A program made the position numbers and the translations under genes. From Minisyncoccia bacterium (GTDB lineage: Bacteria > Patescibacteriota > Minisyncoccia > Phycocordibacterales > UBA918): a DNA stretch of 64,000 nucleotides. Location: the NCBI GenBank assembly GCA_046293175.1, contig JBKBPM010000002.1, positions 83,176 through 147,175 on the forward strand. The letters are read 5' to 3'. The notes under the pieces are model-generated. The model did no database searches. It was not told the DNA's origin and was given only the letters and a program-made list of their open reading frames with translations. Positions 3,670 through 32,028 of this stretch are shown in pieces (the stretch's first letter is position 1; each line of letters starts with the position of its first letter).

Positions 3670-3841
3670 AACCTAATAAGTGTAGCATATTGAGCAATTA
3701 TATATTCTGTCCCTTTTCTTAGAAGCCGCTAAATCGAGTCAGATTCGAGGCGTTCGAGAAAAATATTTCGAGCCGTACTTTTTGTACGGTGAGGAATATT
3801 TTATCGATGAACAACAAAGAAGCTGGCCGATTTAACGGCTT

Positions 3842-13424: not shown

Positions 13425-13461
13425 TATAGCCCCGCGGCGTCATAGACGCCGCGGGGCTATA
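13425..13461 (+). terminator. Rho-independent terminator of ppaC
   Basis: tatagccccgcggcg-tcataga-cgccgcggggctata. Confidence 0.7.
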
Positions 13462-16702: not shown

Positions 16703-17338
16703 TTGTCCAAACGCGCCAAACTAGCCTTATATTCTATGAAATCTGAAATAAATCCAATTCAAAACAACCTTGTCCCGATGGTGATCGAAAAAACCCAAGG
16801 GGGTGAACGAGCGTTTGATATTTTCTCACGTCTCCTTAAGGAACGCATCATCTTCATTACCGGTGGTATTGAAGACCACATGGCGAACCTCGTCGTAGCC
16901 CAGCTCCTCTTCCTTGAAGCTGAAGATCCAAAGAAAGACATCTTCCTCTACATCAACTCACCAGGCGGTAGTGTAACCGCCGGTCTCTCGATTATCGACA
17001 CCATGCACCATATCAAGCCTGACGTAGCAACAGTTTGTGTGGGTATGGCCGCTTCGATGGGTTCACTCATTCTCTCACAAGGTGCCAAGGGTAAGCGAGC
17101 GATTCTCCCGAACGCCGAAGTAATGATCCACCAGCCATCAGGTGGTGCATACGGTCAGGCGTCAGACATTGATATAACCGCAAAGCATATCATGAAGACC
17201 CGTGACCGCCTCAACAAGATGCTTGCCCGCGCCACTGGTCAGAAGCTCCAGCAGATTGAAAAGGACGTAGACCGCGACTACTTCATGGATGCGGAGGAGG
17301 CGATGAAATATGGCATCGTTGACAAAGTTTTTAAATAA
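16703..17338 (+). CDS. clpP: ATP-dependent Clp protease proteolytic subunit
   Basis: [32 protein letters not shown] aligns to the mature ClpP N-terminus. Catalytic Ser sits in GMAASMG and His in MIHQPSGG. The true start may be the internal MKSEINP (about 16736). Confidence 0.9.
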
Positions 17339-17352
17339 ACTTTGTCAACGAT
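17306..17352 (+). terminator. Terminator of clpP (perfect 17-bp hairpin overlapping the stop codon)
   Basis: catcgttgacaaagttt-ttaaataa-actttgtcaacgatg. Confidence 0.7.
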
Positions 17353-17486
17353 GAGGCGCAGCGATGTGAGAAACCCCTTTCCTAGGGTGACGAACCAGCG
17401 AGCCCGGGGTGAGAAATGGGATGGGACCCATTTCGCAAGACCTTTTGAGAAATCTTTGATTTCCAAAAGGTATACTGCTCCTGTAA

Positions 17487-17543
17487 GGAGGAAGTCCTTA
17501 CTAGAATTGGAGCGAAGTGAACAGTTATAGTTAAAAACTTGAC
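17487..17543 (+). promoter_or_regulatory. Conserved upstream element, copy 2, in front of the rny promoter (TTGACT-N18-TTATAA)
   Basis: GGAGGAAGTCCTTACTAGAATTGGAGC...GAACAGTTATAGTTAAAAACTTGAC, homologous to 10864-10919. Confidence 0.5.
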
Positions 17544-20799: not shown

Positions 20800-21306
20800 C
20801 TAGAATACACACCTATGGCTCACAATAATTACTATTTAGATCTTTGCGTTGATACCTTTGTAGTTAATGATAATGCCGTTTTACTTCGACTTCACGATAA
20901 ATACCATCATTGGAATGCTCCTGGAGGCCATGTTGATGCGAACGAAGATCTTAATGAAGCAGCAAAACGTGAAGTCCTAGAAGAAGTAGGTCTTGAAGTA
21001 GAACTAGTACCGCCACATGGATGGATAAAAATGGATACTGATTTTAATCAGGACTTAGTACCACCTCATTTTATAAACCGTCACCGTATTAACGATGTCC
21101 ATGAACATTCCGCTTGTGTGTTTTTTGCGGTATCTAAATCTCGAGATATTGACCCCCAATCTGAAGAAGATAAATTGAGTCAATCTCCATGCGTTTGGGT
21201 AACACTATCCGAATTAGAAGAAATGCACAAAAATGATGGTCGACTCCGATACGATACATATCGGTATGCTAAAGCAGCCCTTTTACTAATTGGAGATGGA
21301 AGTTAA
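20797..21306 (+). CDS. NUDIX hydrolase
   Basis: Nudix box GGHVDANEDLNEAAKREVLEEVGLEV. Confidence 0.75.
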   Translation: MLEYTPMAHNNYYLDLCVDTFVVNDNAVLLRLHDKYHHWNAPGGHVDANEDLNEAAKREVLEEVGLEVELVPPHGWIKMDTDFNQDLVPPHFINRHRINDVHEHSACVFFAVSKSRDIDPQSEEDKLSQSPCVWVTLSELEEMHKNDGRLRYDTYRYAKAALLLIGDGS

Positions 21307-21319
21307 TACCCGTATTCCG

Positions 21320-21770
21320 AATACATCACATCTTTAAGGTAATTTTGTAAAGCAACTTGAACATAATCCACCATATTTGCTGGTAAATTATCCAATGGAA
21401 ACCAGCTAGGGGGTCATCACATTAAATCAGCAAAATCTTTTTTCTTTTCTACCCTAACTGATTCTGCATCCTTAATTGCATTTGCTGTAATTCCTTGAGC
21501 TTTGCATAGTTACCAAAAAAATCGTATGTAACCATCGTGAGTGTATGAATTGAGACTGGGTCAGAATCTCTAAAATATATAAATGTATTGCAGCCTCAAG
21601 TTGCCTTTTCGCAGCATCGATTTTAGAAATAAAAATGATTGGTGCTCCTTTAGGCGTTTCCATATTTTTATTATAACTGGATGAGAAGAATCGGTCACTC
21701 TCATGGCTCTATTATTCGCAAGCTCATAATCTAGCTCATTCGCTCGGTTCTTACAGAACCTGTCCACTCA
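21320..21770 (-). pseudogene. Degraded, frameshifted remnant of an unidentified gene
   Basis: Several short overlapping minus-strand ORFs (21472-21663, 21570-21767) plus an in-frame C-terminal fragment ...PLDNLPANMVDYVQVALQNYLKDVMYSEYGY* read across frames. Confidence 0.35.
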
Positions 21771-22200
21771 TTCGCTTATTTGTTTCGCATGGCTCACAAA
21801 TATGCTGAATGAGTCTTGCGAAATGGGTCCCAGCCCATTTCTCACCCCACTCGCGTCACCCAATCCTCATTTCATTCCGGTCGGGTCCCCGACGCTTCGG
21901 TTCGATTCTTCACGAAAAGTGTCCCACACCTTTCTTCACTCCGCACAGCAATGTTGTCCGGGGATCCAAGTCCTTTTTCTGCCGCACCTCCCACTAGGTT
22001 GGCACACCGTCCATTCACTATGGGTGCTAGGGGAGAGCTGACGATCTGACCGGCTGATGGAGCCGTTCTAACATGCAGCACGTTACGGGGAACTTGCAGG
22101 CAGCACTACGGTGCGTGAGTCCTTCCCCCAACAGGGCCGTTCGCTCACGCGAACGGCTTATTACTTTGTCTGGGCGAGAAGAATCGGTCAGGAGTCGACT
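21684..22200. repeat. Cluster of degenerate tRNA-like fragments and dispersed AATCGGTCAC-type repeats
   Basis: gagaagaatcggtcactctcatggctc (21690) and gggcgagaagaatcggtcaggagtcgac (22165); cggttcgattcttcacg (21885). These are related to copies at 29690-29800 and to the 126-bp tandem repeat. Confidence 0.45.
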
Positions 22201-22297
22201 ATTTTTATACTCGTTTCACTCGTTAAAAATATGTCGCTCACGACCCTGCCTCGCCTCTCTCTTTTTCCGCTTCGCTCCAAAATTCACATGAGGCTCC

Positions 22298-22369
22298 GGC
22301 TTTCGATTCTTCTCACCCGCTACAAACGGCAACGGCCTAGAAACTTTCGTTTCTGGGCCGGCCGATTTG
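22298..22369. repeat. Extended inverted repeat / terminator downstream of tRNA-Gly(TCC); it contains a mirror pseudo-copy of the tRNA 3' half
   Basis: ggctttcgattcttctcacccgc + acaaacggcaacggcc-[loop]-ggccggccgatttgt, then the tRNA 3' end gcgggcgagaagaatcgaa. Confidence 0.6.
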
Positions 22370-22440
22370 TGCGGGCGAGAAGAATCGAACTCCCATCTAC
22401 TGGTTGGAAGCCAGTCATTTTACCACTAAACTACGCCCGC
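22370..22440 (-). tRNA. tRNA-Gly (anticodon TCC), no encoded CCA
   Basis: Revcomp gcgggcgtagtttagtggtaaaatgactggCTTCCAAccagtagatgggagttcgattcttctcgcccgc: 7-bp acceptor, D arm, anticodon stem actgg/ccagt with a 7-nt loop, T arm ttcgatt. Confidence 0.8.
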
Positions 22441-22446
22441 AATATT

Positions 22447-22548
22447 TTGTTGTTTTGTTTTAAAAGAGGTTTGGTGTCTGGCTTTATTTTGGAAGCCAGT
22501 TTTTCGGAAGTATCCAATACTTCCTCAATACCACTAAACTACGCCCGC
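22447..22548 (-). pseudogene. Truncated duplicate of the tRNA-Gly(TCC) 5' half (acceptor 5' strand, D arm, anticodon arm with an expanded loop; no T arm)
   Basis: Revcomp gcgggcgtagtttagtggta-[ttgaggaagtattggatacttccgaaaaa]-ctggcttccaaaataaagccag... Confidence 0.45.
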
Positions 22549-22605
22549 TTTTAAATTGTCATTCTTTTGCTACGTCAGGCAGTATACAGAATTTAGACCA
22601 TAATA

Positions 22606-23259
22606 TCAACCTAGTAACAGATCCATATAAGCTGTGATTTTCCTCGAAAGCGCTGTGCCAAAAGCACTATTCCCCTTTGCTCCAACCGTCAGATGGAGCG
22701 TTCCCCACTCATGTGTGCCGGCTCGTTTTTTGTCTTTTCCCTGCCTTCTATCGATACAAGGTGGTTGAAATTGGCCGGCCGGTATGTGGGTATGATTCGA
22801 CCAATATTCTTGGGCTTTTTTGAAGTCCGTCGTAGGATACGCATGGATTCTTGCTTTGACATGAGACAAAGGAACACCAATAACTTCTAACCACCGCAAA
22901 AATAAACCAATTACCCGCTCATCACTGTTTACCAACCGCACGATATTTTGAGTTTTACTTCCCTCACCAACATACAGAGCTATACCAGCCATAAAAATAT
23001 CTCGCTTAGATAGTTTGCCAATTTCTTTTTGAGCAATTTGTTTGGCAGTGTTGATTCTTGAAACCTTTTGCCGGTGTTTGGTCTCGGCTGATTTTCGTTG
23101 CGCTTGTTTCTTTTCCTTTTGCGTGTAGACATTTGGAGTATATGGCACAGTAGCAAGATGATACGACAACGTACTTTTGGCCAATCCGGTCTTCTCGTGA
23201 ATATACCGATAGGAATACCCTGCTTGCCGTAACTCAATAGCTTTTTGCTTAGCGTTCAT
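22606..23259 (-). CDS. HTH DNA-binding protein with a C-terminal LAGLIDADG-like / endonuclease-like region (paralog A), immediately upstream of tRNA-Gly(TCC)
   Basis: N-terminal HTH LRQAGYSYRYIHEKTGLAKSTLSYHL; FMAGIALYVGEGSK motif; clear homology across the full length to 30084-30764. Confidence 0.55.
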   Translation of the reverse strand: MNAKQKAIELRQAGYSYRYIHEKTGLAKSTLSYHLATVPYTPNVYTQKEKKQAQRKSAETKHRQKVSRINTAKQIAQKEIGKLSKRDIFMAGIALYVGEGSKTQNIVRLVNSDERVIGLFLRWLEVIGVPLSHVKARIHAYPTTDFKKAQEYWSNHTHIPAGQFQPPCIDRRQGKDKKRAGTHEWGTLHLTVGAKGNSAFGTALSRKITAYMDLLLG

Positions 23260-23331
23260 ATCGATATTATATCATGTGCAATCCATCATATTTTGTATGT
23301 TCTATTTAGAGCATGATGGTATACTACCCCT

Positions 23332-24435
23332 ATGCAGTTCATTATTGATATTTTGGTGGCCGGACTCATGGCCTACCTCTCTTTTACTAACTATCTCGCG
23401 GTCGGTATCGAGAAGCTTTTTAGTACCGACGAACCAAAGCCAGCCAAATCCGCACCAGTAGAAGAAGCCAAGACCGACACCGTCAGCACCGAACCAACAC
23501 GGCTTGAATCCATCTTTGCCCGTATCCCGGACATCCTCAAGCGTAGTGCCGAGTACCAACAGGCTACTGTCATTGAAAGCACTACCGTTGCCCCCACCCC
23601 AACCACTAATCCCGAAGCGGCAATCGTGAACATCTACTGTACCTTCGTGACCGAACGGACTATCCGTACCACCACTGGTACCGGCTTTATGGTCAGTGAA
23701 GACGGTATCATCCTCACCAATGCGCACGTCGCACAATTCCTCCTCCTTGAAGCCTCTGGTGCACTAGGCGAAAGTACCTGTACCATCCGTACCGGATCGC
23801 CAGCCTCTCCACGCTACGTGGCCGAGCTCCTCTATATTCCACCGGCATGGGTTGCGGAGCACGCATCTTTGATCGATGCCGCTTCACCCAGTGGTACTGG
23901 CGAACGAGACTACGCTCTCTTGCATATCACCAAATCAGTTGATGGTGCACCACTTCCCGCCAAGTTCACCGCCCTCCCCCTCTACGATGGCCAGCTCACT
24001 CAGCGATCGATTCGTGGTGAGGTCATTGCGGCCGGCTACCCGGCTGTCTATGCCGCCGGTGACACCGATACAAACCTGCGTACCCGCAGTGCTACCACCT
24101 CAGTCTCTGAGCTCTTCACCTTTGGTAAGCAGGATGTGGATGTACTGGCACTCCGCGGTAGTAGTATGGGGCAACAAGGTTCCTCAGGTGGACCAGTGGT
24201 TAATGCCGATGGCTACGTAATTGGGATGATTGCTACACGTGGTAATGATGAGAAGGATGGTCCCGGCAGTCTCCGCGCTATCACGATTGATCACATCAAC
24301 CGGACGATTACCGAAGAAACCAATGCGTCGTTAAACCAACACCTCAGTGGCGATATTACCTCCCGTGCCCGCATCTTTGCAACCACAATGACCCCGTTCC
24401 TCACTGAGCTACTGATAGAAGAAATCGGTCAGTAA
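23332..24435 (+). CDS. Trypsin-like (S1/HtrA-like) serine protease, membrane-anchored, no PDZ domain
   Basis: GTGFMVSEDGIILTNAHV (His), GSSGGPVVNADGYVIGMI (Ser), N-terminal TM segment. Confidence 0.75.
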   Translation: MQFIIDILVAGLMAYLSFTNYLAVGIEKLFSTDEPKPAKSAPVEEAKTDTVSTEPTRLESIFARIPDILKRSAEYQQATVIESTTVAPTPTTNPEAAIVNIYCTFVTERTIRTTTGTGFMVSEDGIILTNAHVAQFLLLEASGALGESTCTIRTGSPASPRYVAELLYIPPAWVAEHASLIDAASPSGTGERDYALLHITKSVDGAPLPAKFTALPLYDGQLTQRSIRGEVIAAGYPAVYAAGDTDTNLRTRSATTSVSELFTFGKQDVDVLALRGSSMGQQGSSGGPVVNADGYVIGMIATRGNDEKDGPGSLRAITIDHINRTITEETNASLNQHLSGDITSRARIFATTMTPFLTELLIEEIGQ

Positions 24436-24448
24436 TTGACATAACCAT

Positions 24449-24489
24449 ATACAAAAGCGGCTGATCTATAGACCAGCCGCTTTTGTATT
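24449..24489. terminator. Bidirectional terminator between the protease and the anti-sigma-like gene
   Basis: atacaaaagcggctg-atctatagac-cagccgcttttgtat. Confidence 0.7.
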
Positions 24490-24498
24490 GACTAAGTA

Positions 24499-25866
24499 TT
24501 ATTCACTAAGGGGAGTATCGATAATCACGTCTCGTGTACCGGTTGCACTATTGATTAAACCATCGGTTGTCGTCGCAGTACTTGAAGCATCAACATCGAG
24601 TGTCATCATCGCAGTATCAGGATTGAGATTCGTGAATGAAGCGAGACTCATAATTGAACGAGTGTAATCACGGGCTTCAAAAGCTGAAGCTTTGGCCACC
24701 TCTACATCGGTATCAAGTGAAGTTGAGGCCGTGAGGAGAAGGGTCTTGATTTGTGGGATAGTCAGGGTGACCTTATCACTAATACCCACATCAGTAACCG
24801 CTGGGAGAGTCTCTTCAATCTTTGTAAGGGCCGTCTCTGCTTCATTGTACGCATTAATCGCCAGAGCTCGCTCTTCTTCTGGGGTGAGCACTATTGGGAC
24901 GAAGCTTTCAATTGCGAGTGATGAACGAACATCAATATCAGTCATGAACGTAATCACTACCTGCATATCACGCCAGGTTTGGGTCAGGAATTCCTGTCCA
25001 CGAACTGCATCTTCGGTATACATAATGGTACCTTGAACAATCTTCCGCTCCACATCACCAATACGACGTTCGAGATCGGCATATTCCTGTTCGTTGACAT
25101 TGTCTTTGATACTAAGGAGGAGCTCACGACCCCGAGTAGTCTCTTGTTCAAGCTTGGCGACGAGGCGTTCGTAGGATACACCATCTGATGAAACCTGCTC
25201 AACATGCGCCTGCGCTTCATCAAGAGCCATCGCAATAGCGACGGTAGACATACCTTTGGTGGTACTGGCAGTATCACCAGCGCGGAGCGCGGCTGATTGG
25301 ACATCAAGAACTGAAACAAGGGTAAGTTCCGCAAGAGCAGCGGCATCAGCATCGATACTTCGCAGGGTAGCAATTTGACCAGCGGCTGCTACTTGATGTT
25401 CGTTTACCGCCGCAATCACACCCGCTTCAATTTCTGGCGTAAGCTTCCCTTCTTTGGCCAAGAGCCGAGCTTCGGAGATGCGACGTTCGAGTCGCTTCGT
25501 TTCCCAAGCCACTTTTTCATAACCACCAGAGGTGAGACTAGCGCGCACTTCCTCATTTACGCGCACCTTCATCGGATAGAGGACATCACCAGGCACGGCA
25601 CGTTCAGCGAGGGCTGGTACACCAACAAACACCAGCGCAAAACAACCAAGCACAAGCTGGCGATAGAGACGGGTTGGCATCGCCCACTCAATAAATGGTT
25701 CGGTAAACATCGCTCGACGAGATGATGTGGCGGTCTTTGGAGCTGGAGTCGTAATAGGGTGGTACGCCATATACGCAGTGAGTCGATCACGAAGTACGTC
25801 CTTCTCCGCCGCTGAAAGACGGATATTGGATGCTTGTTTCTTAAACTGTTCGCTAAATCGTTTCAT
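24499..25866 (-). CDS. Membrane-anchored coiled-coil protein co-transcribed with the ECF sigma factor (putative anti-sigma or regulatory partner)
   Basis: Its start lies 9 nt after the sigma gene; TM helix LVLGCFALVFVGVPALA; 455 aa. Confidence 0.4.
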   Translation of the reverse strand: MKRFSEQFKKQASNIRLSAAEKDVLRDRLTAYMAYHPITTPAPKTATSSRRAMFTEPFIEWAMPTRLYRQLVLGCFALVFVGVPALAERAVPGDVLYPMKVRVNEEVRASLTSGGYEKVAWETKRLERRISEARLLAKEGKLTPEIEAGVIAAVNEHQVAAAGQIATLRSIDADAAALAELTLVSVLDVQSAALRAGDTASTTKGMSTVAIAMALDEAQAHVEQVSSDGVSYERLVAKLEQETTRGRELLLSIKDNVNEQEYADLERRIGDVERKIVQGTIMYTEDAVRGQEFLTQTWRDMQVVITFMTDIDVRSSLAIESFVPIVLTPEEERALAINAYNEAETALTKIEETLPAVTDVGISDKVTLTIPQIKTLLLTASTSLDTDVEVAKASAFEARDYTRSIMSLASFTNLNPDTAMMTLDVDASSTATTTDGLINSATGTRDVIIDTPLSE

Positions 25867-25874
25867 TGTGTATA

Positions 25875-26456
25875 TTATTTCTTTTTCTTCTTGATTGCCA
25901 TATCGGGATTATTCCGATTTTCAATCATGTCGCGTAAGAGCTTCAGTCCTCGATGAATGCGGACCGAGACCACGTTTTCACTTTCTTCCACCAGCTCACT
26001 GATTTCTTTTGGTCCAAGCCCATCCACAAACCGGAAAAGGAGTACCTCACGGTACACATCAGGCAGGGTCGATACCAGGGTAAACGCCTGCTTCCCATCG
26101 AGGGTAGCGGCGAGCGCCTCAGTAGTATCTTCTACCAGATCAGAAAATGAGCCTTCGGTCACCCCCTCTTGGGCCAAAAGGGTATCAAGTGATTGTTCCC
26201 GCTGCTTTCGGTACTCATCAATAATGAGATTGTTGAGTACTTTGTACAAAAAAGGGCGGTACTGCTCCACTTCGTGACCATTTTTTATGTATGTCCACAC
26301 TTTTGTAAACGTGTCGTGAACCAGGTCAATAGCCCGTTCACGGTCGCTTATACGGAGTGCAGCGTGACGAAAAAGAGCGTCGTTGTATTCAGAAAACGCT
26401 TCTAAAAAGCGCTCCTCTTGGCTTCCGCTTGTCGATGTGGTTTTTGAACCCGCCAT
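25875..26456 (-). CDS. ECF-family RNA polymerase sigma-70 factor
   Basis: Region 2 (ALFRHAALRISDRERAIDLVHDTFTKVW) and region 4 (VLLFRFVDGLGPKEISELV), 193 aa. Confidence 0.8.
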   Translation of the reverse strand: MAGSKTTSTSGSQEERFLEAFSEYNDALFRHAALRISDRERAIDLVHDTFTKVWTYIKNGHEVEQYRPFLYKVLNNLIIDEYRKQREQSLDTLLAQEGVTEGSFSDLVEDTTEALAATLDGKQAFTLVSTLPDVYREVLLFRFVDGLGPKEISELVEESENVVSVRIHRGLKLLRDMIENRNNPDMAIKKKKK

Positions 26457-26581
26457 GTGGAAACCATTATATATGTAGACGGCGTCCCTGCCTAATACTT
26501 ACGGGGAACTAGTGAGTTTTCCACAGGTTCCACATTCAACCACAATGATTGAAATTTGCAAGTATTTTTCGTCTACATTCC

Positions 26582-27514
26582 TTAAAACCACCCTTTCTTC
26601 TGGAAAAACCACACCAAAACAGCGAGGATAACCCCATTGGCCGCCAAGATATAGAAAAAGGCAAACGGCGAATCCTGAAGCGGCAAGTTGATGTTCATTC
26701 CGTAAAACGACGCAATCACCAGCGGTACAGTAAGGAGAATGGTAAGGACGGTGAGAATACTCAAAGAATTATTAAGCCGACTGGTCATAATCGCCTCAAT
26801 GCCCCCGCGCATATTTTGAATAGTCTTGAGGATAGATCGCGCCTGTTCCACCACCTGATTGTTCGCAATGATAATGTCCTCCATATCATCAATATCATCG
26901 GCAAAAAGTTGCATGTAGTTTCCTTTTGGTACCTGCTGGAGCCAGGCGTTGGTGGGCACTAGAGCATCCACCATACTATTAAGCCTCGATTCGTATTGCA
27001 CGAGACGTTCAATCCCCTTCATTCCAATCTTCGTGAGGCGTACGCGCTCCTTTTGCACCGCTTTACGCAGTTTAATCAGTTCACTATCGTAGGCCTGGGT
27101 CAGTGCTTCCACCATCAAAATAAATAATTTGGCTTTCTGGGTAGTCACCACCGCCTCTTTACCACACAAAAATCGCTCGAGGAACGGGACGGGACGGAGT
27201 GCCATCGTGAGTACAAACGATTCCCCCATGATAATGAGGAGTGGCGCAGTTTCACTATCTTCTTTAATCTCCCGATAAGGGTAGCGGGTAAAGAAATACG
27301 TGCCACCATCAGATTTTTCAAGGCGCGGCACCTCAAAGAAGTCCTCAGCATCTTCCATAATATCCTCATCAAGCCCAAAATCAGCCTGCAATTTCTTGAT
27401 CTCTTCAGTTGTTGGCGATTCAGCATGAACCCACACTCCCGTCCGCACGGCGTCGAGCTTCTTTAGTTCAGTGTCTTTAATCGTGCGAAAATAGTACGTA
27501 ATCATCACCATCAC
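26582..27514 (-). CDS. corA: CorA-family Mg2+/Co2+ transporter
   Basis: The YGMNINLP signature (GMN motif) and two C-terminal TM helices. Confidence 0.8.
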   Translation of the reverse strand: MMVMITYYFRTIKDTELKKLDAVRTGVWVHAESPTTEEIKKLQADFGLDEDIMEDAEDFFEVPRLEKSDGGTYFFTRYPYREIKEDSETAPLLIIMGESFVLTMALRPVPFLERFLCGKEAVVTTQKAKLFILMVEALTQAYDSELIKLRKAVQKERVRLTKIGMKGIERLVQYESRLNSMVDALVPTNAWLQQVPKGNYMQLFADDIDDMEDIIIANNQVVEQARSILKTIQNMRGGIEAIMTSRLNNSLSILTVLTILLTVPLVIASFYGMNINLPLQDSPFAFFYILAANGVILAVLVWFFQKKGWF

Positions 27515-27640
27515 AATACCCTACTCAACCATTTTTTGAAAGTATATATTTAGCGTATCTCGGTATTCAGGAAATAAGTTTAGATCTTCAACTTGATCAG
27601 CATAAATCCACCGCGCTTCACAAACCTCTCCATCATTAAA

Positions 27641-27892
27641 CTACATCTCTGTTTCCTTTGGAATAGTCACTTCGTAGGCAATCATTAGAGCATTCTTCTG
27701 TTCACTTCCTTGAAGAAATTGAGTGAGGTGTATAACATTTCCGACAACACCAATAACACCGAGCTCTTCATTAATTTCTCTTACTAAACCTTGCTTCGGA
27801 TTTTCACCAACATTTAACCTTCCGCCAGGAATTTCCCAAATTTCACGCTTTTCACGAGGATCTCTTACCACCAATACTTTGCCATCACGCAA
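27641..27892 (-). CDS. Short NUDIX-box protein (83 aa, TTG start), possibly an N-terminally truncated NUDIX hydrolase
   Basis: Nudix box GGRLNVGENPKQGLVREINEELGV. An in-frame TAA lies directly upstream, so the usual N-terminal beta strands are absent. Confidence 0.45.
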   Translation of the reverse strand: MRDGKVLVVRDPREKREIWEIPGGRLNVGENPKQGLVREINEELGVIGVVGNVIHLTQFLQGSEQKNALMIAYEVTIPKETEM

Positions 27893-27941
27893 AATAACTG
27901 CTTTTTATGCCACTTTGCCCTCAAAGTGAACTTCTTTCATG

Positions 27942-28012
27942 TCGGGGAGCCGAGAATCGAACTCGGACCATTCGGTCCCAAACCGAACACACTACCACTA
28001 TGCTACACCCCG
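27942..28012 (-). tRNA. tRNA-Pro (anticodon TGG), no encoded CCA
   Basis: Revcomp cggggtgtagcatagtggtagtgtgttcggTTTGGGAccgaatggtccgagttcgattctcggctccccga. Anticodon stem ttcgg/ccgaa; T arm ccgag-ttcgatt-ctcgg; one T-T mismatch in the acceptor stem. Confidence 0.7.
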
Positions 28013-28397
28013 ATAGTGGCCAATACTATAGCATATCAATAATAAAATGCGAGGGGTATTATCCGTGGAGTTCGATAAGTACCGCATCAATATTTTTTTC
28101 CATTGAGTTGCCGAATGGTAATGAAACATAGCCTCGGGAATCTCATCGGCTAAGGCAAATATTTTTGGTTTACCGTCTTTCTGGGCCAATGTAAGCGCTG
28201 CGCCTAGCTCAGCAAACAGCCCAGCCGTCATAATGTGCGAGAAAAATACAAACATCTGCCGCAGTAATACCTTTTAATTGTAGCTCAGCATACTTTCCTG
28301 CCTCATGAGGGTGTTCATGGTAAGACTTCACCATAGGAAGAACAGTCCGGTCATGAGTTATTTCGTGCCCGCGGTCACGCAAACAACTGCGTAACAC
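27998..28397 (-). pseudogene. Frameshifted gene remnant (two overlapping ORFs, 28209-28397 and 27998-28255) of unknown function
   Basis: The adjacent fragments ...KGITAADVCIF and FSHIMTAGLFAELGAALTLAQKDGKPKIF read as one protein split by a frameshift. Confidence 0.35.
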
Positions 28398-28486
28398 GGA
28401 CTATCTCAGTAAAATTTGAGGACCGACCAGAAACAAAACATTTCATATCACTAATCTAACATACATGTTACATGTGAAACTAATTA

Positions 28487-28997
28487 TTATGGCACCAAAG
28501 CCATCTTTAGTACCTCAAGACAACTTGTAACGGTCTTAAAACGACCATTAGCTACCTCACTTCCCTTTGCGCCCGGCCGTGCTATGCGAATCGCCTGGCC
28601 AGTGGTTATCTCCGCTACAAAAGCTTTCAAATGCTCAATGGTGACATCAATAAATACCACCTTTTCACATGAAACGCCCAAATCAAGGTAATTCTTAATG
28701 GTTTTGGCCTTACTTCCCTGTTCCACGTAGAACGTTTGATCAAAATAAGGCTCTAAACCAGAGAGTTTAAACTTACATTCCTGGACACTCCGACAACCAA
28801 ACGTCACTAAGTAGCAATTAAAACCCGCTTCTCGGACGTTCCATATGAAACTAAGTAGATCAGGATAGAGAAACCGCGAGAAGTCAGCACCGATATTCCC
28901 CCGCCATAATGCCTTGTATATAAGTCAGTTCCAAAGAATTATAAAATCGTTCGGTATCAAACAGTGTCCGATCAAAATCCAGGAAGATATGCTTCAT
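28487..28997 (-). pseudogene. HAD-superfamily hydrolase pseudogene (N-terminal fragment interrupted by a stop, then a C-terminal ORF)
   Basis: MKHIFLDFDRTLFDTERFYNSLE (HAD motif I DxDxT), then stop codons, then the ORF 28487-28807. Confidence 0.4.
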
Positions 28998-29041
28998 TTC
29001 CCATTAAAACTGGGAAAACGATCCGAATGTTGCACATGAAA

Positions 29042-29500
29042 CTACGCAACAATGATATTCTCAATGATTTTTATGGTCGAAAATGTTTCACGTGGTACAA
29101 CTCGGACCGCTACTACATCAATTTGCCAGTCTCCATCGTACTTTTGCTCCATAAGCCAGCTTTCTATAGCTCGTGATAGTTTCTTGAGCTTAAACGGATG
29201 AACATTCTCCTCTGGCCGCCAAGTTCCATATGAAACGGCGTTTTTTAGATCCTGCTTTGTTCGGTATGAAACGGTTTTGACCTCAACAAAGTGAACTTTG
29301 TTGTTTTTACTCACAACTACGTCAATTTCACCCCATTTCTTGCGGTAGTTGCGCGCTACTAAGGAAAAACCACGATTAATGAGGTACTGGGCAGCTAATT
29401 TTTCACCAATTTGACCGGTTTCTATATGTTCTGGCGTAATTTTGGCTTTTTGTGCCATAGTAGCTATAGTATAACAGGCTAGAATGCTTAAATTGCCCAA
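29042..29500 (-). CDS. YraN/UPF0102-family endonuclease
   Basis: GEKLAAQYLINRGFSLVARNYRKKWGEIDVVVSKNNKVHFVEVKT; the likely start is MAQKAK (about 29458). Confidence 0.7.
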   Translation of the reverse strand: MGNLSILACYTIATMAQKAKITPEHIETGQIGEKLAAQYLINRGFSLVARNYRKKWGEIDVVVSKNNKVHFVEVKTVSYRTKQDLKNAVSYGTWRPEENVHPFKLKKLSRAIESWLMEQKYDGDWQIDVVAVRVVPRETFSTIKIIENIIVA

Positions 29501-29535
29501 TTATGCATGTTCTACGTGTAACAGGTGCAAAGTGT

Positions 29536-29549
29536 GCCACGTGGCACAT
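29536..29549. promoter_or_regulatory. Perfect 14-bp palindrome GTGCCACGTGGCAC
   Basis: Seen directly in the sequence; a candidate dimeric-regulator operator. Confidence 0.3.
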
Positions 29550-29689
29550 GTATTTTTTATAAGATATCCACGGCTTTAAGATTATGGCTATATTTTACAA
29601 GGGTTTTTGTAAAAGAATCCTGTCTTTGAGACATGTCCTTTATGCACATATTCACGTGGTTATACACTGTTTGAGGAGGGAGGTTGGTG

Positions 29690-29930
29690 TGCAGAATCGG
29701 TCACGAGTCACTAGGCATAATCTTTCGCTTTGCTTAGTGTGGCCAGAGAGAATCGGTCCTTACAGGACCAGTTTTCATGAGTCGGTCACTCTCGTGGCTG
29801 GATTATGAATCGTCCTGACGGTCACCATGCTAGATTATTTCACTGTGTTCATAATCTAGCAGGTGCCGCGGGACACGCCTCACTTGTTTTGGCATTAGGA
29901 ATAGCCAAAACATCGTTCCGGCGTTCGATT
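29690..29930. repeat. Cluster of degenerate tRNA-3'-end-like repeats (AATCGGTCAC family) and T-arm-like fragments
   Basis: gcagaatcggtcacgagtcac, ggccagagagaatcggtccttacaggacc, gagtcggtcactctcgtggctgg, ggcgttcgattctctacgc; also one ATGTCCTTTAT site at 29636. Confidence 0.45.
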
Positions 29931-29957
29931 CTCTACGCAAAGCATACTAATACTTTG

Positions 29958-30019
29958 CTCTGGCCGCACATATGAAAAAAGACCCAGGGAAGGGTCTTTT
30001 TTCATATGTGCGGCCAGAG
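29958..30019. repeat. 28-bp-arm inverted repeat / terminator overlapping the tRNA-Gly(GCC) 3' end
   Basis: ctctggccgcacatatgaaaaaagaccc-aggga-agggtcttttttcatatgtgcggccagag. Confidence 0.65.
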
Positions 30020-30079
30020 AGAATCGAACTCTCGACTAAACCTTGGCAAGGTCTCATTATACCACTTAACCATGGCCGC
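30009..30079 (-). tRNA. tRNA-Gly (anticodon GCC), no encoded CCA
   Basis: Revcomp gcggccatggttaagtggtataatgagaccTTGCCAAggtttagtcgagagttcgattctctctggccgc. Confidence 0.8.
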
Positions 30080-30083
30080 AATA

Positions 30084-30764
30084 TTAATTTTTCAGCTCTT
30101 TCTCAAGCAAAGTAACCCAGTGACTAAGCTTCTTCTTGAGTAAAGTACTGGCGATTATAGTATTTCCGACGCCAAAATGCAACGTCTCTTTCCCAGCTCG
30201 ACCGGTAATAACCTGGTTTTTGTAGAATTGAGCAGGGGAGAGGGTAGTTTTTTGGCACCAGTGCTTCATACAAGCCACTTCATCAAGATCAGGGTAGAGA
30301 AGGAGCCAAAAGCGGATAGAACTCTTGGGTACGCCAAGATAGCCCGTGAGGAAGCGTATAAAGAGCTTGTGGAGTTGTGGGCGACTACCCGAGAGGCGAA
30401 TGAGGCGCGGGTTCTCTTGGTCTCCAGCGGTCATGTAGAGGGTGAGCCCAGCGACAAATAGTGGGGAAAAACGGTAGTTTTTGAATTCGACCTCAGCTAA
30501 GCGGGTGATTTCGGAGTATTGGTGCTTTCGTTCAGCCACTCGCGCTTTATTGATGAGGGCAAGACGCTTGGTGTTCTGTGCTACCGCTTGTTTCTTATTG
30601 TCTTTGGCCACCGCTTTGGAGAATGGTTCGTTCTTCAGCCAATTACTCACGGTGCCACGCGAAACACTACAGATCTTCGCGATTTCGGTATAGGTAAAGC
30701 CACGCCGGCGAAAGACGAGGGCTTGTTCATAGGCTTCAGGCTTGTACGAACGTACTTTTGACAT
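30084..30764 (-). CDS. HTH DNA-binding / LAGLIDADG-like protein (paralog B); stop codon 4 nt from the tRNA-Gly(GCC) 5' end
   Basis: HTH FRRRGFTYTEIAKICSVSRGTVSNWL; FVAGLTLYMTAGDQ motif; homologous along the full length to 22606-23259. Confidence 0.55.
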   Translation of the reverse strand: MSKVRSYKPEAYEQALVFRRRGFTYTEIAKICSVSRGTVSNWLKNEPFSKAVAKDNKKQAVAQNTKRLALINKARVAERKHQYSEITRLAEVEFKNYRFSPLFVAGLTLYMTAGDQENPRLIRLSGSRPQLHKLFIRFLTGYLGVPKSSIRFWLLLYPDLDEVACMKHWCQKTTLSPAQFYKNQVITGRAGKETLHFGVGNTIIASTLLKKKLSHWVTLLEKELKN

Positions 30765-30904
30765 TATAAAAGTTGTCTATAGTATACTGTAGCCAGTGTT
30801 CATTTCTAGCGCAAAACAATACCGGCAGGGGATACCGGTTGTGTTTACTCCTTTGATCTTAAGAATCGCCGTCGATTTCTTCTTTCTTACAGAAACAGTC
30901 CACT

Positions 30905-31262
30905 CATTGGGTATTTTATTTCGTTCCTCATAAAATATCTCATTCGCCCGACCCGGACTGTTCCGGCCCTAAAGGGAACCCCGGAACAGTCTTTCGAGTC
31001 CCTCCGGGGGCGACATGGACTCGGTCACGCTCATGGATATTTTATTTCGTTCCTCATAAAATATCTCATTCGCCCGACCCGGACTGTTCCGGCCCTAAAG
31101 GGAACCCCGGAACAGTCTTTCGAGTCCCTCCGGGGGCGACATGGACTCGGTCACGCTCATGGATATTTTATTTCGTTCCTCATAAAATATCTCATTCGCC
31201 CGACCCGGACTGTTCCGGCCCTAAAGGGAACCCCGGAACAGTCTTTCGAGTCCCTCCGGGGG
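30905..31262. repeat. 126-bp tandem repeat, about 2.8 near-identical copies, each carrying a plus-orientation pseudo-copy of the tRNA-Arg 3' half
   Basis: Unit ggatattttatttcgttcctcataaaatatctcattcgcccgacccggactgttccggccctaaagggaaccccggaacagtctttcgagtccctccgggggcgacatggactcggtcacgctcat; copies start at 30909, 31035 and 31161. Confidence 0.85.
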
Positions 31263-31264
31263 CG

Positions 31265-31311
31265 ACAAACGGCAACGGCCCAAATGCTTGCGCATTTGGG
31301 CCGGCCGTTTG
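31265..31311. terminator. Hairpin terminator downstream of tRNA-Arg, same scaffold as at 22322-22369
   Basis: acaaacggcaacggcccaaatgc-ttgc-gcatttgggccggccgtttgt. Together with 31245-31260 and 31316-31331 it forms an inverted repeat of about 40 bp per arm. Confidence 0.6.
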
Positions 31312-31383
31312 TGCACCCGGAGGGACTCGAACCCCCGACGACTGTTCCGAAGACAGTAATGATATCCACTTCACCACGGGTGC
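31312..31383 (-). tRNA. tRNA-Arg (anticodon TCG), no encoded CCA
   Basis: Revcomp gcacccgtggtgaagtggatatcattactgtCTTCGGAacagtcgtcgggggttcgagtccctccgggtgca. Confidence 0.75.
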
Positions 31384-31422: not shown

Positions 31423-32028
31423 TTAGCGAAGATTGAAATGCTTTAAGATGGCATTAAAGACGATGAGTCCGTCGCTTTCGCTATGGTATTTCTCTAGGTG
31501 AAAGATGGTGCCAATTTGTGGCTTACTTTCGTGGCCAAACATCAGGATACCGCGCGCAGAAGGGATGATGGGGTAAAGTGGTGACGCCACCGCTTCAATA
31601 ATCCACTGATGGCCTTCGTAAAGGCAAAGGAGCGGCGGTAAACCAAAAGAGTTTTCTGGTACGACATTGGCGAAAAAGCCTTTCTGTTTATTTTCGGGAC
31701 CTAGATGATGGAGTTTACCACCATACGCCTCCACAATCAGTTCAGCGCCATAACAAATACCAAGAATTGGCTTAGTCTGCTCAGGTATCCAGGCGAGGAT
31801 AGCTTCTAATTCAGTGCGAAAGTAGGGGATGGGGTGATGGTTGCTGCCGGTGAGCACAATGAGATCATGGGTGGCTTGCGGATAGAGCTCGGCTACTGTT
31901 GTAAAGGGCACCACCTCAACAGCATCGTCAGTGAACAATGCCACGACATTCTTTGGATATCGAACACCGTTATTAATGATAAGCACGCGCATAGGGAGTT
32001 CCCTGCAGTATACCGCGCAAGAGGGCAA
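31423..32028 (-). CDS. Type-1 glutamine amidotransferase-like protein
   Basis: GICYGAELI nucleophile elbow and a downstream His; the start is probably MRVLIINNG (31992). Confidence 0.6.
   Translation of the reverse strand: MPSCAVYCRELPMRVLIINNGVRYPKNVVALFTDDAVEVVPFTTVAELYPQATHDLIVLTGSNHHPIPYFRTELEAILAWIPEQTKPILGICYGAELIVEAYGGKLHHLGPENKQKGFFANVVPENSFGLPPLLCLYEGHQWIIEAVASPLYPIIPSARGILMFGHESKPQIGTIFHLEKYHSESDGLIVFNAILKHFNLR

What the first reader, a model, noticed from the sequence alone, without database searches (positions are those of the whole stretch)
21300..30770. Paralogous HTH / endonuclease-like genes directly upstream of two tRNA-Gly genes, with truncated tRNA copies and tRNA-like debris: a candidate tRNA-targeting selfish module
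Two homologous proteins (22606-23259 and 30084-30764) share an N-terminal HTH and a LAGLIDADG-reminiscent block (FMAGIALYVGEGS / FVAGLTLYMTAGD). Each lies on the same strand immediately upstream of a tRNA-Gly (TCC at 22370-22440; GCC at 30009-30079, only 4 nt away). Next to copy A sits a truncated duplicate of the tRNA 5' half with an expanded anticodon loop (22447-22548). Both loci carry the same family of degenerate tRNA-3'-end-like repeats and adjoining pseudogenes. The repeated gene-plus-tRNA-Gly architecture, duplicated tRNA parts and local gene decay point to a homing-type or integrative element that uses tRNA-Gly genes. I do not recognise this arrangement as a described system.
Basis: partly seen in the sequence, partly recalled or inferred. 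Interest (0 to 1): 0.75.

Follow-up and report, generated by a model that had tools for sequence, protein, structure and literature searches.

The report
tRNA-flanking HTH–LAGLIDADG genes plus tRNA-tail repeats
Two old, well-conserved genes for homing-endonuclease-like DNA-binding proteins each sit just upstream of a glycine tRNA gene, as members of a large unnamed family that sat beside a tRNA gene in every case sampled, and the "tRNA debris" downstream is a separate folded repeat that marks a hot spot for inserted DNA.

Summary
Proteins A (22606-23259) and B (30084-30764) are paralogs: an N-terminal HTH, a long helix and one LAGLIDADG-fold domain. Each lies 5' of a tRNA-Gly on the same strand. 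The truncated tRNA 5' copy and the tRNA-3'-end repeats are real.

The "currently mobile selfish module" reading is only partly right.
- A and B are syntenic orthologs in all relatives examined; B is followed by tRNA-Gly(GCC) in 43 of 45 species.
- They diverge at the pace of their housekeeping neighbours, with dN/dS 0.05-0.15.
- The window's B has lost the catalytic Glu. A keeps it.

The family is large (about 7,900 clusters at 50% identity) and has no Pfam model for its C-terminal domain. Every sampled member abuts the 5' side of a tRNA gene: Gly, Arg or Gln, in Patescibacteria and in Actinomadura. Two further paralog clades (C and Arg) are variably present. This fits free-standing homing endonucleases that colonised tRNA 5' flanks and then became fixed.

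The "debris" is a distinct repeat with covarying stems that carries a copy of the local tRNA's 3' tail. It occurs 3' of many tRNA types and at the junctions of strain-variable islands, independently of the protein genes.

I rate this a new variant of a known kind, of moderate to high interest.

The parts
22606..23259 (-). Paralog A: HTH plus long helix plus a single LAGLIDADG-fold domain, 217 aa. The motif is FMAGIALYVGEGSK and the catalytic-position Glu99 is retained.
   Evidence: orthologs upstream of tRNA-Gly(TCC) in L002, L003, L005, L006-L011, L186, L188
22581..22609 (-). Sigma-70-like promoter TTGATA-N17-TATACT. It overlaps the stop codon of A and would drive tRNA-Gly(TCC).
   Evidence: 10 of 12 positions match. 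The TTGATA...TATACT arrangement is conserved in L002, L003 and L005. That it is functional is inferred.
22447..22548 (-). Partial duplicate of the tRNA-Gly(TCC) 5' half (acceptor 5' strand, D arm and anticodon arm, with two inserted hairpin segments). It lies in the tRNA leader, downstream of the promoter.
   Evidence: D3: 20 nt exact; D7: 12 nt exact; present only in the window and its 95%-identity relatives
22369..22440 (-). tRNA-Gly(TCC). It is 100% identical across relatives whose A proteins are only 57-60% identical.
22168..22330 (-). tRNA-tail element, unit 1 at locus A. It has an inverted copy of the tRNA 3' end (22302-22330), a core, and a direct copy of the tail (22165-22186).
   Evidence: (I1, D1)
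21672..21960 (-). tRNA-tail element, unit 2 at locus A. It has an inverted T-loop copy (21900-21914), a type II core (21743-21814) and a degenerate direct tail copy (21672-21693).
   Evidence: covariance model R1, 46 bits, E 1.6e-11
21300..21671 (-). Stretch with broken reading frames. It may be a pseudogene, but it is unidentified.
   Evidence: no family match
30084..30764 (-). Paralog B: HTH_23 plus long helix plus a LAGLIDADG-fold domain, 226 aa. The motif is FVAGLTLYMTAGD, with Ala113 at the catalytic-acid position and Asp115 two residues later.
   Evidence: followed by tRNA-Gly(GCC) in 43 of 45 species representatives
30008..30079 (-). tRNA-Gly(GCC), 4 nt after the stop codon of B.
29958..30019 (.). 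Perfect 28-nt-arm palindrome. It comprises the tRNA acceptor 3' strand, a bidirectional terminator hairpin and the inverted copy of the acceptor strand.
   Evidence: read from the sequence; same layout in relatives
29685..29957 (-). tRNA-tail elements at locus B. There is a type I core (about 29815-29932), a type II 3' part with a direct tail copy (29737-29812), and a further degenerate tail copy (29685-29710).
   Evidence: R1, E 1.4e-7; 93% identical in relative L012
30864..31300 (-).
17339..17510 (+).
   Evidence: (E 5.9e-8)

Best explanation
A and B are two anciently diverged members of a large family without a family-level annotation. Family members have an N-terminal helix-turn-helix, a long helix and one LAGLIDADG-fold domain, which is the fold of homing endonucleases. 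In every case I sampled, the gene lies immediately 5' of a tRNA gene on the same strand.

Most likely history (inferred). Free-standing LAGLIDADG homing-endonuclease genes colonised the 5' flank of tRNA genes. The conserved tRNA sequence provides a stable recognition half-site, and the insertion leaves the tRNA intact. Different clades became tied to different tRNA loci: B and C to Gly-GCC, A to Gly-TCC, one clade to Arg-TCG, others to Gln-TTG.

State in this lineage (shown). A and B are fixed, vertically inherited and under purifying selection. The 3' ends of the A and C genes overlap or abut a promoter-like site in front of the tRNA. A keeps the catalytic Glu, so it may still cut DNA. The window's B has Ala at that position, so it probably only binds DNA, as WhiA does.

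What the proteins do today at the tRNA locus is not shown. Cutting variant or empty alleles, or regulating the tRNA promoter, are both possible.

The sequences 3' of the tRNAs are a second, independent component. They are copies of a folded repeat of about 100-200 nt. Each copy carries a direct copy, and often also an inverted copy, of the last roughly 24 nt of the neighbouring tRNA. The repeat sits at the junctions of strain-variable islands. These copies are best read as attachment-site-type elements left by, or used for, insertions into the tRNA 3' end. In this window the island next to tRNA-Gly(TCC) is almost empty.
For: Fold and homology.
- The family profile hits I-DmoI domain 2 at E 5e-5, aligning FlaGlalYlgeGskt with FIKG--LYVAEGDKT.
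- Only HTH Pfam models match.

Family size. 7,919 clusters at 50% identity reach E<=1e-3, and 936 reach E<=1e-30.

tRNA adjacency.
- B is followed by tRNA-Gly(GCC) in 43 of 45 species representatives.
- A is followed by tRNA-Gly(TCC) in L002, L003, L005, L006-L008, L180, L186 and L188.
- A C paralog lies between B and the tRNA in 6 loci, and an Arg paralog lies directly upstream of tRNA-Arg in L014, L025, L028, L037, L184 and L185.
- P0156 is followed by tRNA-Gln.
- Proteins with two or three tandem modules in Actinomadura and Allonocardiopsis are followed by tRNA-Gln(TTG).

Vertical inheritance and selection.
- Synteny is conserved.
- Divergence resembles the neighbours'.
- dN/dS is 0.05-0.15.
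- The four clades are deep, and the C tree mirrors the B tree.

Catalytic acid. It is kept in 36/36 of the A clade, 120/120 of the Arg clade and 140/150 of the superfamily representatives, but in only 61/120 of the B clade. The window's B has Ala.

Promoters.

The element.
- Covariation: 19 of 22 pairs have compensatory changes, with 91% of cells paired against 65% in shuffles and 34-49% when the partners are slid. Type I has 13 of 22 pairs with compensatory changes.
- 39/41 type I and 42/51 type II copies lie within 700 nt 3' of a same-strand tRNA, across nine anticodon types.
- Elements occur 3' of Pro and other tRNAs that have no family gene upstream.
- Cargo between HU and tRNA-Gly(TCC) varies among strains. 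Tail copies bracket a 4.6-kb cargo in L188, and one sits inside islands that carry phage-like genes.
Against: - No cleavage site or DNA target is known, and nuclease activity is untested.
- Classical homing-endonuclease genes decay after fixation. Long-term purifying selection on a retained catalytic Glu needs either continued homing among close strains, which I could not resolve, or a host function.
- I found no true empty-site allele for A or B. For C and Arg, the presence/absence pattern fits loss as well as gain; the C tree mirrors the B tree.
- The sample of distant family members with readable context is small (about 10 outside the A, B, C and Arg clades of this lineage). It is also biased towards proteins close to the query profile.
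- No integrase was found next to the elements, so their att-site role is inferred.
- One element copy (17339-17510) is not next to a tRNA.
Confidence: 0.55

Rival explanations
1. The proteins are host transcription factors, a 'mini-WhiA' type. They would be LAGLIDADG-derived DNA-binding proteins, each regulating the promoter of the tRNA gene it abuts, with no selfish or nuclease role today.
For: - B is fixed in 45 of 45 species and is conserved even where the catalytic Glu is lost.
- The A and C gene ends overlap promoter-like sites for the tRNA.
- dN/dS is low.
Against: - The catalytic acid is kept in 93-100% of the non-B clades, which a pure DNA binder would not need. WhiA lacks it (my own knowledge).
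- The C and Arg paralogs are dispensable in many genomes.
- Distribution in Actinomycetota looks sporadic: only the three genera that turned up.
- Only a few tRNAs per genome have such a gene.
Confidence: 0.2
2. One reading: one selfish, currently mobile module in which the endonuclease-like gene, the tRNA copies and the 3' repeats move together and use tRNA-Gly genes as targets.
For: - The gene-plus-tRNA architecture is repeated in the window.
- A duplicated tRNA 5' half lies next to A.
- tRNA-tail repeats occur at both loci.
- The flank 3' of tRNA-Gly(TCC) varies between strains.
- Precedent: the phage homing endonuclease SegB in a tRNA cluster drives segmental amplification (abstract of PMC13096335, listed).
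Against: - A and B are syntenic, fixed and selected.
- The repeats occur 3' of Pro, Thr, Phe, Gln and Asp tRNAs without an upstream family gene. Among tRNA-Arg loci the two features coincide only in L037.
- The arrangement is not specific to tRNA-Gly.
- The window's B lacks the catalytic residue.
Confidence: 0.07
3. The proteins act on RNA. In this view the LAGLIDADG domain works as a maturase-like chaperone or processing factor for the adjacent, possibly co-transcribed, tRNA precursor.
For: - The gene lies 4-50 nt from the tRNA on the same strand, which makes co-transcription plausible for B.
- Some LAGLIDADG proteins are RNA maturases (my own knowledge).
Against: - tRNA-Gly(TCC), and tRNA-Gly(GCC) where C is present, have their own promoter-like sites.
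- The N-terminal domain resembles DNA-binding HTH domains of transposases and resolvases.
- Most tRNAs in the same genomes lack such a partner.
Confidence: 0.08

Closest known systems
LAGLIDADG homing endonucleases (I-DmoI, I-CeuI, I-CreI, I-Tsp061I)
   Different: None of the 25 aligned members matches a Pfam LAGLIDADG model. The proteins have an extra N-terminal HTH and a helix of about 50 residues. They are free-standing, not in an intron or intein. A and B are fixed and selected rather than sporadic. The window's B lacks the acid. Activity is untested.
WhiA (LAGLIDADG-derived transcription regulator of Gram-positive bacteria)
   Different: WhiA has two LAGLIDADG domains followed by a C-terminal HTH and no catalytic residues (my own knowledge). 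Here there is one domain with an N-terminal HTH, the catalytic Glu is kept in most clades, and the genes are tied to tRNA loci. None of the 25 aligned members matched a WhiA model in Pfam.
Free-standing homing endonucleases in phage tRNA gene clusters (T-even SegB)
   Same: An endonuclease gene lies beside tRNA genes. SegB promotes segmental amplification of its tRNA locus (abstract of PMC13096335, listed). That is a precedent for the partial tRNA duplication next to A.
   Different: SegB is a GIY-YIG enzyme of a phage (my own knowledge). Here the genes are chromosomal and of LAGLIDADG type, and they are stably inherited across a bacterial class.
tRNA-targeted genomic islands and prophages, with direct repeats of the tRNA 3' end as att sites and tandem accretion
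   Same: Direct copies of the tRNA tail lie 3' of the tRNA. Cargo differs between strains, tail copies sit at cargo junctions, and units occur in tandem.
   Different: No integrase was found in the loci examined. The repeat also carries an inverted tail copy and a conserved core with covarying stems. That is not expected of plain att scars.
Folded single-stranded recombination sites (CTXphi attP(+), integron attC)
   Same: The inverted and direct tail copies can pair to re-create a duplex of the target site. Stems are conserved through compensatory changes, and G-U pairs outnumber A-C mismatches on one strand, 28 against 13.
   Different: This is an analogy only. No recombinase, single-stranded replicon or circular form has been identified, and the element may equally be a transcribed RNA.

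Membership tests
LAGLIDADG homing endonuclease superfamily | alpha-beta-beta-alpha-beta-beta-alpha core fold with the motif helix at the N-terminus of the domain | tested here: met
LAGLIDADG homing endonuclease superfamily | Sequence homology to known members | tested here: met
   The A1 profile hits I-DmoI at E 5e-5. The single sequence gives E 0.03. The PADLOC 'HEase' model gives E 0.003. Pfam LAGLIDADG_1/2/3 models give no hit.
LAGLIDADG homing endonuclease superfamily | Conserved acidic residue at the end of the motif (metal binding and catalysis) | tested here: inconclusive
   A has Glu99, kept in 36/36 of its clade. The window's B has Ala113, and the B clade keeps Glu in only 61/120. The Arg clade keeps it in 120/120 and the superfamily representatives in 140/150.
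LAGLIDADG homing endonuclease superfamily | Site-specific double-strand DNA cleavage | not testable with these tools
   This needs purified protein and substrate DNA.
Mobile homing-endonuclease gene (selfish element) | Presence/absence polymorphism among related genomes, with empty target sites | tested here: not met
   The criterion is not met for A and B. B is present in 45 of 45 species loci, and A is present in all relatives with the syntenic region. The C paralog is present in 6 of 45 loci and the Arg paralog in 4 of about 29 tRNA-Arg loci in that set (plus L184 and L185), but the trees fit loss.
WhiA family | Two degenerate LAGLIDADG domains followed by a C-terminal HTH | tested here: not met
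   The protein has one LAGLIDADG domain and an N-terminal HTH. None of the 25 aligned members matched a WhiA Pfam model.
tRNA-targeted integrative element (att sites) | Direct repeats of the tRNA 3' end bracketing variable cargo | tested here: met
   Window copies are at 22373, 22172 and 21679. In L188, tail copies at 13438 and 8785 bracket 4.6 kb. Cargo differs among L006, L186, L187, L188 and the window.
tRNA-targeted integrative element (att sites) | Integrase or recombinase gene next to an att site | tested here: not met
   No integrase or recombinase Pfam family appears in the gene tables of L006, L186-L191 or in the unknown genes scanned. The search was not exhaustive, and the window as a whole was not scanned.
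Any Rfam RNA family (for the tRNA-tail element) | Match to a curated covariance model | tested here: not met
   Only tRNA passes the gathering threshold. In the E-value scans, all other matches fell far below their families' gathering scores; those lying on the 29958-30019 palindrome are probably chance hairpin matches.

The most novel reading that the evidence does not exclude
The two components work together as an undescribed tRNA-locus system. The HTH-LAGLIDADG nucleases would cut at or near 'their' tRNA gene in variant alleles. The folded tRNA-tail elements would act as single-stranded (DNA or RNA) mimics of the tRNA gene's 3' end and serve as integrase-independent recombination sites. Together they would drive the exchange of the strain-variable islands next to tRNA genes in Patescibacteria.
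Probability: 0.1. Interest if true: 0.9.

Novelty: new variant of a known kind. Interest (0 to 1): 0.62.

Why it matters
If this holds, a family with thousands of sequence clusters, currently annotated only as 'HTH domain protein' or 'hypothetical', becomes a recognisable class. Its members are homing-endonuclease-type proteins anchored to the 5' flank of tRNA genes in Patescibacteria and in some Actinomycetota.

That offers a natural series from likely active enzymes (the A, C and Arg clades) to domesticated ones (the B clade). Such a series is useful for studying how selfish nucleases become host genes. It is also a possible source of new sequence-specific DNA binders.

It would also improve annotation of candidate-phyla genomes.

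The tRNA-tail repeat gives a concrete, searchable marker of insertion hot spots in these genomes, where integrases and mobile elements are poorly known. Its covarying structure suggests a mechanism not yet described.

Tried and rejected
- Pfam, NCBIfam, PHROGs and PADLOC scans of A and B gave only HTH hits and one weak 'HEase' hit. There is no named family for the C-terminal domain.
- Rfam scans at the gathering threshold and by E-value gave nothing but tRNA.
- A viral-contig scan for the type I core found 0 hits.
- A metagenome scan for the same core returned mostly chance matches. Only 5 of the 80 loci returned are true elements, so the pattern was too short for that collection.
- I looked for an empty site in the closest species (L012). 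It carries the same element at 93% identity, so it is not an empty site.
- Group I intron, hammerhead and other small ribozymes: no Rfam match, and the core is too small for a group I intron. Rejected.
- Primer-binding site for a retroelement: the inverted copy matches the genomic trailer (..GCA-CA), not a CCA end. Rejected.
- TnpB/IscB guide RNA or IS110 bridge RNA: the 'scaffold plus tRNA-tail' layout is reminiscent, but no such gene lies nearby and the tail copy also occurs in the intact tRNA. Not supported.
- Split or permuted tRNA built from the 5' pseudo-half and the 3' tail copies: there is no complementary leader or BHB-like arrangement, and the pseudo-half is restricted to one shallow lineage. 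Rejected.
- Dependence of the tRNA on the promoter of the upstream gene ('promoter capture'): A and C have a promoter-like site between gene and tRNA. It remains open only for B.
- Identity of the broken ORFs at 21300-21690 and of the unknown proteins next to island junctions: no matches.
- Literature searches found no description of this protein family or of the element.

Full report
**1. What is in the window**

The window holds four tRNA genes, all on the minus strand: Gly(TCC) 22369-22440, Pro(TGG) 27941-28012, Gly(GCC) 30008-30079 and Arg(TCG) 31311-31383.

ORF A (22606-23259, 217 aa) ends 165 nt before tRNA-Gly(TCC). ORF B (30084-30764, 226 aa) ends 4 nt before tRNA-Gly(GCC). A and B align over their full length at 25% identity, E 2e-17.

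**2. What the proteins are**

Pfam, NCBIfam and PHROGs recognise only an N-terminal helix-turn-helix (HTH_23, E 3e-7 in B). They find nothing for the C-terminal two thirds.

Several lines show that the C-terminal domain has a LAGLIDADG fold.
- A profile of both paralog groups matches the second LAGLIDADG domain of I-DmoI at E 5e-5. It aligns FlaGlalYlgeGskt...irlvnsdp with FIKG--LYVAEGDKT...LRIWNKNK.
- The AF2 model of B has pLDDT 92. It shows a three-helix HTH (residues 9-42), a helix of about 50 residues, and an alpha/beta domain.
- The separately modelled C-terminal domain of A has pLDDT 91.

**3. Are A and B variable or conserved?**

They are conserved.
- Close and distant relatives keep the same gene order: B, UPF0102, NUDIX, CorA, sigma-70, DUF5667, trypsin-like protease, A, a variable stretch, HU.
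- In 45 species-representative genomes that encode a B ortholog (45-95% identity), 43 have tRNA-Gly(GCC) downstream on the same strand. One locus is cut by the contig end, and one has no tRNA call.
- A is followed by tRNA-Gly(TCC) in every relative that has it.
- A and B diverge at the pace of their neighbours. Against L002 and L003, B is 75% and 69% identical, sigma-70 85% and 73%, CorA 57% and 73%, A 60% and 57%, and the protease 65% and 56%.
- dN/dS is 0.05-0.15.

**4. The family and its rule**

The joint profile finds 7,919 clusters (50% identity) at E<=1e-3, and 936 at E<=1e-30. Most are about 220 aa. Some are 400-576 aa with two or three tandem modules.

Scanning all fetched loci with the profile revealed two more clades in this lineage.
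- 'C' lies between B and tRNA-Gly(GCC) in L003, L013, L014, L015, L028 and L050.
- 'Arg' lies directly upstream of tRNA-Arg(TCG) in L014, L025, L028, L037, L184 and L185.

The four clades are 21-31% identical to each other and 54-66% identical within a clade. The C tree mirrors the B tree. This points to vertical descent with losses: L013, whose B is 92% identical to the window's, has C, and the window does not.

More distant members follow the same rule.
- P0151 is 4 nt upstream of tRNA-Gly(TCC), and P0156 is 4 nt upstream of tRNA-Gln(TTG).
- The multi-module proteins of Actinomadura atramentaria, A. parmotrematis and Allonocardiopsis opalescens lie 40-80 nt upstream of tRNA-Gln(TTG).

Every member whose context I could read abuts the 5' side of a tRNA gene on the same strand. 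I found no description of this in the literature searches.

**5. Catalytic residue**

At the position of the catalytic acid (G-E-G):
- the A clade has Glu or Asp in 36/36;
- the Arg clade has it in 120/120;
- the superfamily representatives have it in 140/150;
- the B clade has it in only 61/120.

The window's B has Ala113, with a conserved Asp two residues later. A is therefore a candidate active enzyme. The window's B probably is not.

**6. Promoters and the truncated tRNA copy**

A sigma-70-like site, TTGATA-N17-TATACT, overlaps the stop codon of A. It is conserved in the relatives with 57-60% identity. The 3' end of the C gene carries TTGACC-N17-TATTAA about 30 nt before tRNA-Gly(GCC). The gene ends and the promoter-like sites in front of the tRNAs are thus interlocked.

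The truncated tRNA copy has a 20-nt and a 12-nt exact block. It lies between that promoter and the real tRNA, in the leader. It exists only in the window and its 95%-identity relatives. It is a young, lineage-specific partial duplication.

A nuclease-induced break repaired with duplication is a plausible cause. The phage endonuclease SegB provides a precedent for segmental amplification of a tRNA locus (abstract of PMC13096335, listed). This cause is inferred, not shown.

**7. The 'tRNA-like debris'**

The tail repeats are far above chance, but they are not random debris. In the window and in many relatives the same layout follows the tRNA:
1. the tRNA tail;
2. a bidirectional terminator;
3. 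an inverted copy of the acceptor 3' strand;
4. a variable hairpin;
5. an inverted copy of the T-loop and T-stem;
6. a conserved core, of which there are two types;
7. a direct copy of the last roughly 24 nt of that same tRNA;
8. a second terminator.

The tail copies match each species' own tRNA sequence.

*Evidence for structure*
- In the type II alignment (16 sequences), 19 of 22 pairs show compensatory changes. 91% of cells are paired, against 65% in shuffles and 34-49% when the partners are slid.
- In type I, 13 of 22 pairs show compensatory changes.
- On the tRNA-sense strand, G-U pairs outnumber A-C mismatches 28 to 13 (my count). This is modest evidence that this strand is the one that folds.

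*Distribution*
- 39/41 type I and 42/51 type II copies lie within 700 nt 3' of a same-strand tRNA. The tRNAs are Gly(GCC), Gly(TCC), Pro, Arg(TCG), Arg(CCT), Gln, Thr, Phe and Asp.
- Most of those tRNAs have no HTH-LAGLIDADG gene upstream. Among tRNA-Arg loci the gene and the element coincide only in L037. The two components are therefore independent in cis.
- No Rfam family matches.

*Copies in the window*
- The covariance model finds copies at both Gly loci.
- A triple tandem array lies 3' of tRNA-Arg (30864-31300).
- One copy lies after clpP (17339-17510), with no tRNA nearby.

**8. A hot spot for insertion**

Homology between the window and its 95%-identity relative L006 stops exactly at the 3' end of tRNA-Gly(TCC).

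Strains with an identical HU protein carry completely different cargo between HU and this tRNA:
- metal and thiol-redox genes in L006;
- ABC and SEC-C proteins in L186;
- oxidases in L188;
- methyltransferases and a small-terminase-like gene in L187 and L189-L191.

In L188, tail copies bracket a 4.6-kb cargo. In L187 and L189-L191, a tail element sits inside the island, next to unknown genes. I found no integrase.

The window's 21300-22369 stretch is thus an almost empty island site. It holds two decayed element units and an unidentified broken ORF.

**9. Synthesis**

*Shown*
- The fold, the paralogy, the conservation and the selection on A and B.
- The family-wide adjacency to tRNA genes.
- The loss of the catalytic Glu in the window's B.
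- The structured tRNA-tail repeat and its independence from the protein genes.
- The strain-variable flank 3' of tRNA-Gly(TCC).

*Inferred*
- The family descends from free-standing homing endonucleases that target tRNA 5' flanks.
- A still cuts DNA.
- B acts as a DNA binder.
- The repeats act as attachment-type sites.

*Open*
- The present function of the proteins.
- Whether the element works as RNA or as DNA.

The single mobile, tRNA-Gly-specific module does not hold.

Noticed in passing
window 30864-31300 (- strand), downstream of tRNA-Arg(TCG) 31311-31383: Three nearly identical tandem units of about 126 nt of the tRNA-tail element. Each unit has an inverted tRNA-Arg tail, a hairpin, an ATATTTTATGAGGAACGAAATAAAATAT hairpin and a degenerate direct tail. 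The array ends in a type II 3' part.
   Followed up: partly
window 17339-17510 (+ strand), right after the clpP-like ORF 16703-17338: A copy of the same element family (R1, E 5.9e-8) with no tRNA nearby. It shares the GTGAGAAATGGG..CCCATTTCGCAAG module with the second unit at locus A (about 21815-21860).
   Followed up: partly
L003:855-1529, L013:688-1386, L014:3695-4366, L015:3705-4379, L028:3674-4381, L050:3629-4342: A third paralog clade ('C', motif GEGDK) lies in tandem between B and tRNA-Gly(GCC). It carries a TTGACC-N17-TATTAA promoter-like site in its 3' coding end. It is absent from the window although present in a relative whose B is 92% identical.
   Followed up: yes
L184:2501-3178, L185:2501-3175, L037:1320-2063, L025:1382-2056, L028:1092-1919: A fourth clade lies directly upstream of tRNA-Arg(TCG). 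The homolog search returned 741 hits at E<=1e-3, the best 120 of which are 52-100% identical. The likely ancestral order is CCA-adding enzyme, Arg paralog, tRNA-Arg, B, tRNA-Gly(GCC). In the window an unrelated 201-aa ORF (31423-32028) takes the place of the Arg paralog.
   Followed up: partly
L058:4001-5683 (Actinomadura atramentaria), L059:3001-4599 (A. parmotrematis), L183:2001-3515 (Allonocardiopsis opalescens): Proteins of 500-560 aa made of two or three tandem HTH-LAGLIDADG modules lie upstream of tRNA-Gln(TTG) and glmU-prs. This shows the family, and its link to tRNA genes, outside Patescibacteria.
   Followed up: partly
L006:5388-15149; L186:10274-14740; L187:10274-16747; L188:7178-13433: The stretch between HU and tRNA-Gly(TCC) carries entirely different gene sets in strains with an identical HU protein. 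The cargo includes metal and thiol-redox genes, oxidases, and DNA methyltransferases with a small-terminase-like gene. No integrase was seen.
   Followed up: partly
L003 (tRNA-Pro, - strand; element at about 17337-17511 in reverse-complement coordinates) and L016 (about 546-721 in reverse-complement coordinates): One type II element appears to be nested inside the P3 hairpin of another. This suggests the repeat can insert into copies of itself.
   Followed up: no
L034:3001-3900: A B ortholog with no tRNA-Gly detected downstream. A type II element hit at 3799-3886 suggests a disrupted or atypical tRNA there.
   Followed up: no
window 22134-22159 and the apical loops of many element hairpins: GCGAAGC-type mini-hairpins and UGA...GAAA internal loops recur at the tips of the element's long hairpin. 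These resemble tandem G-A or k-turn-like motifs, but their significance is unknown.
   Followed up: no
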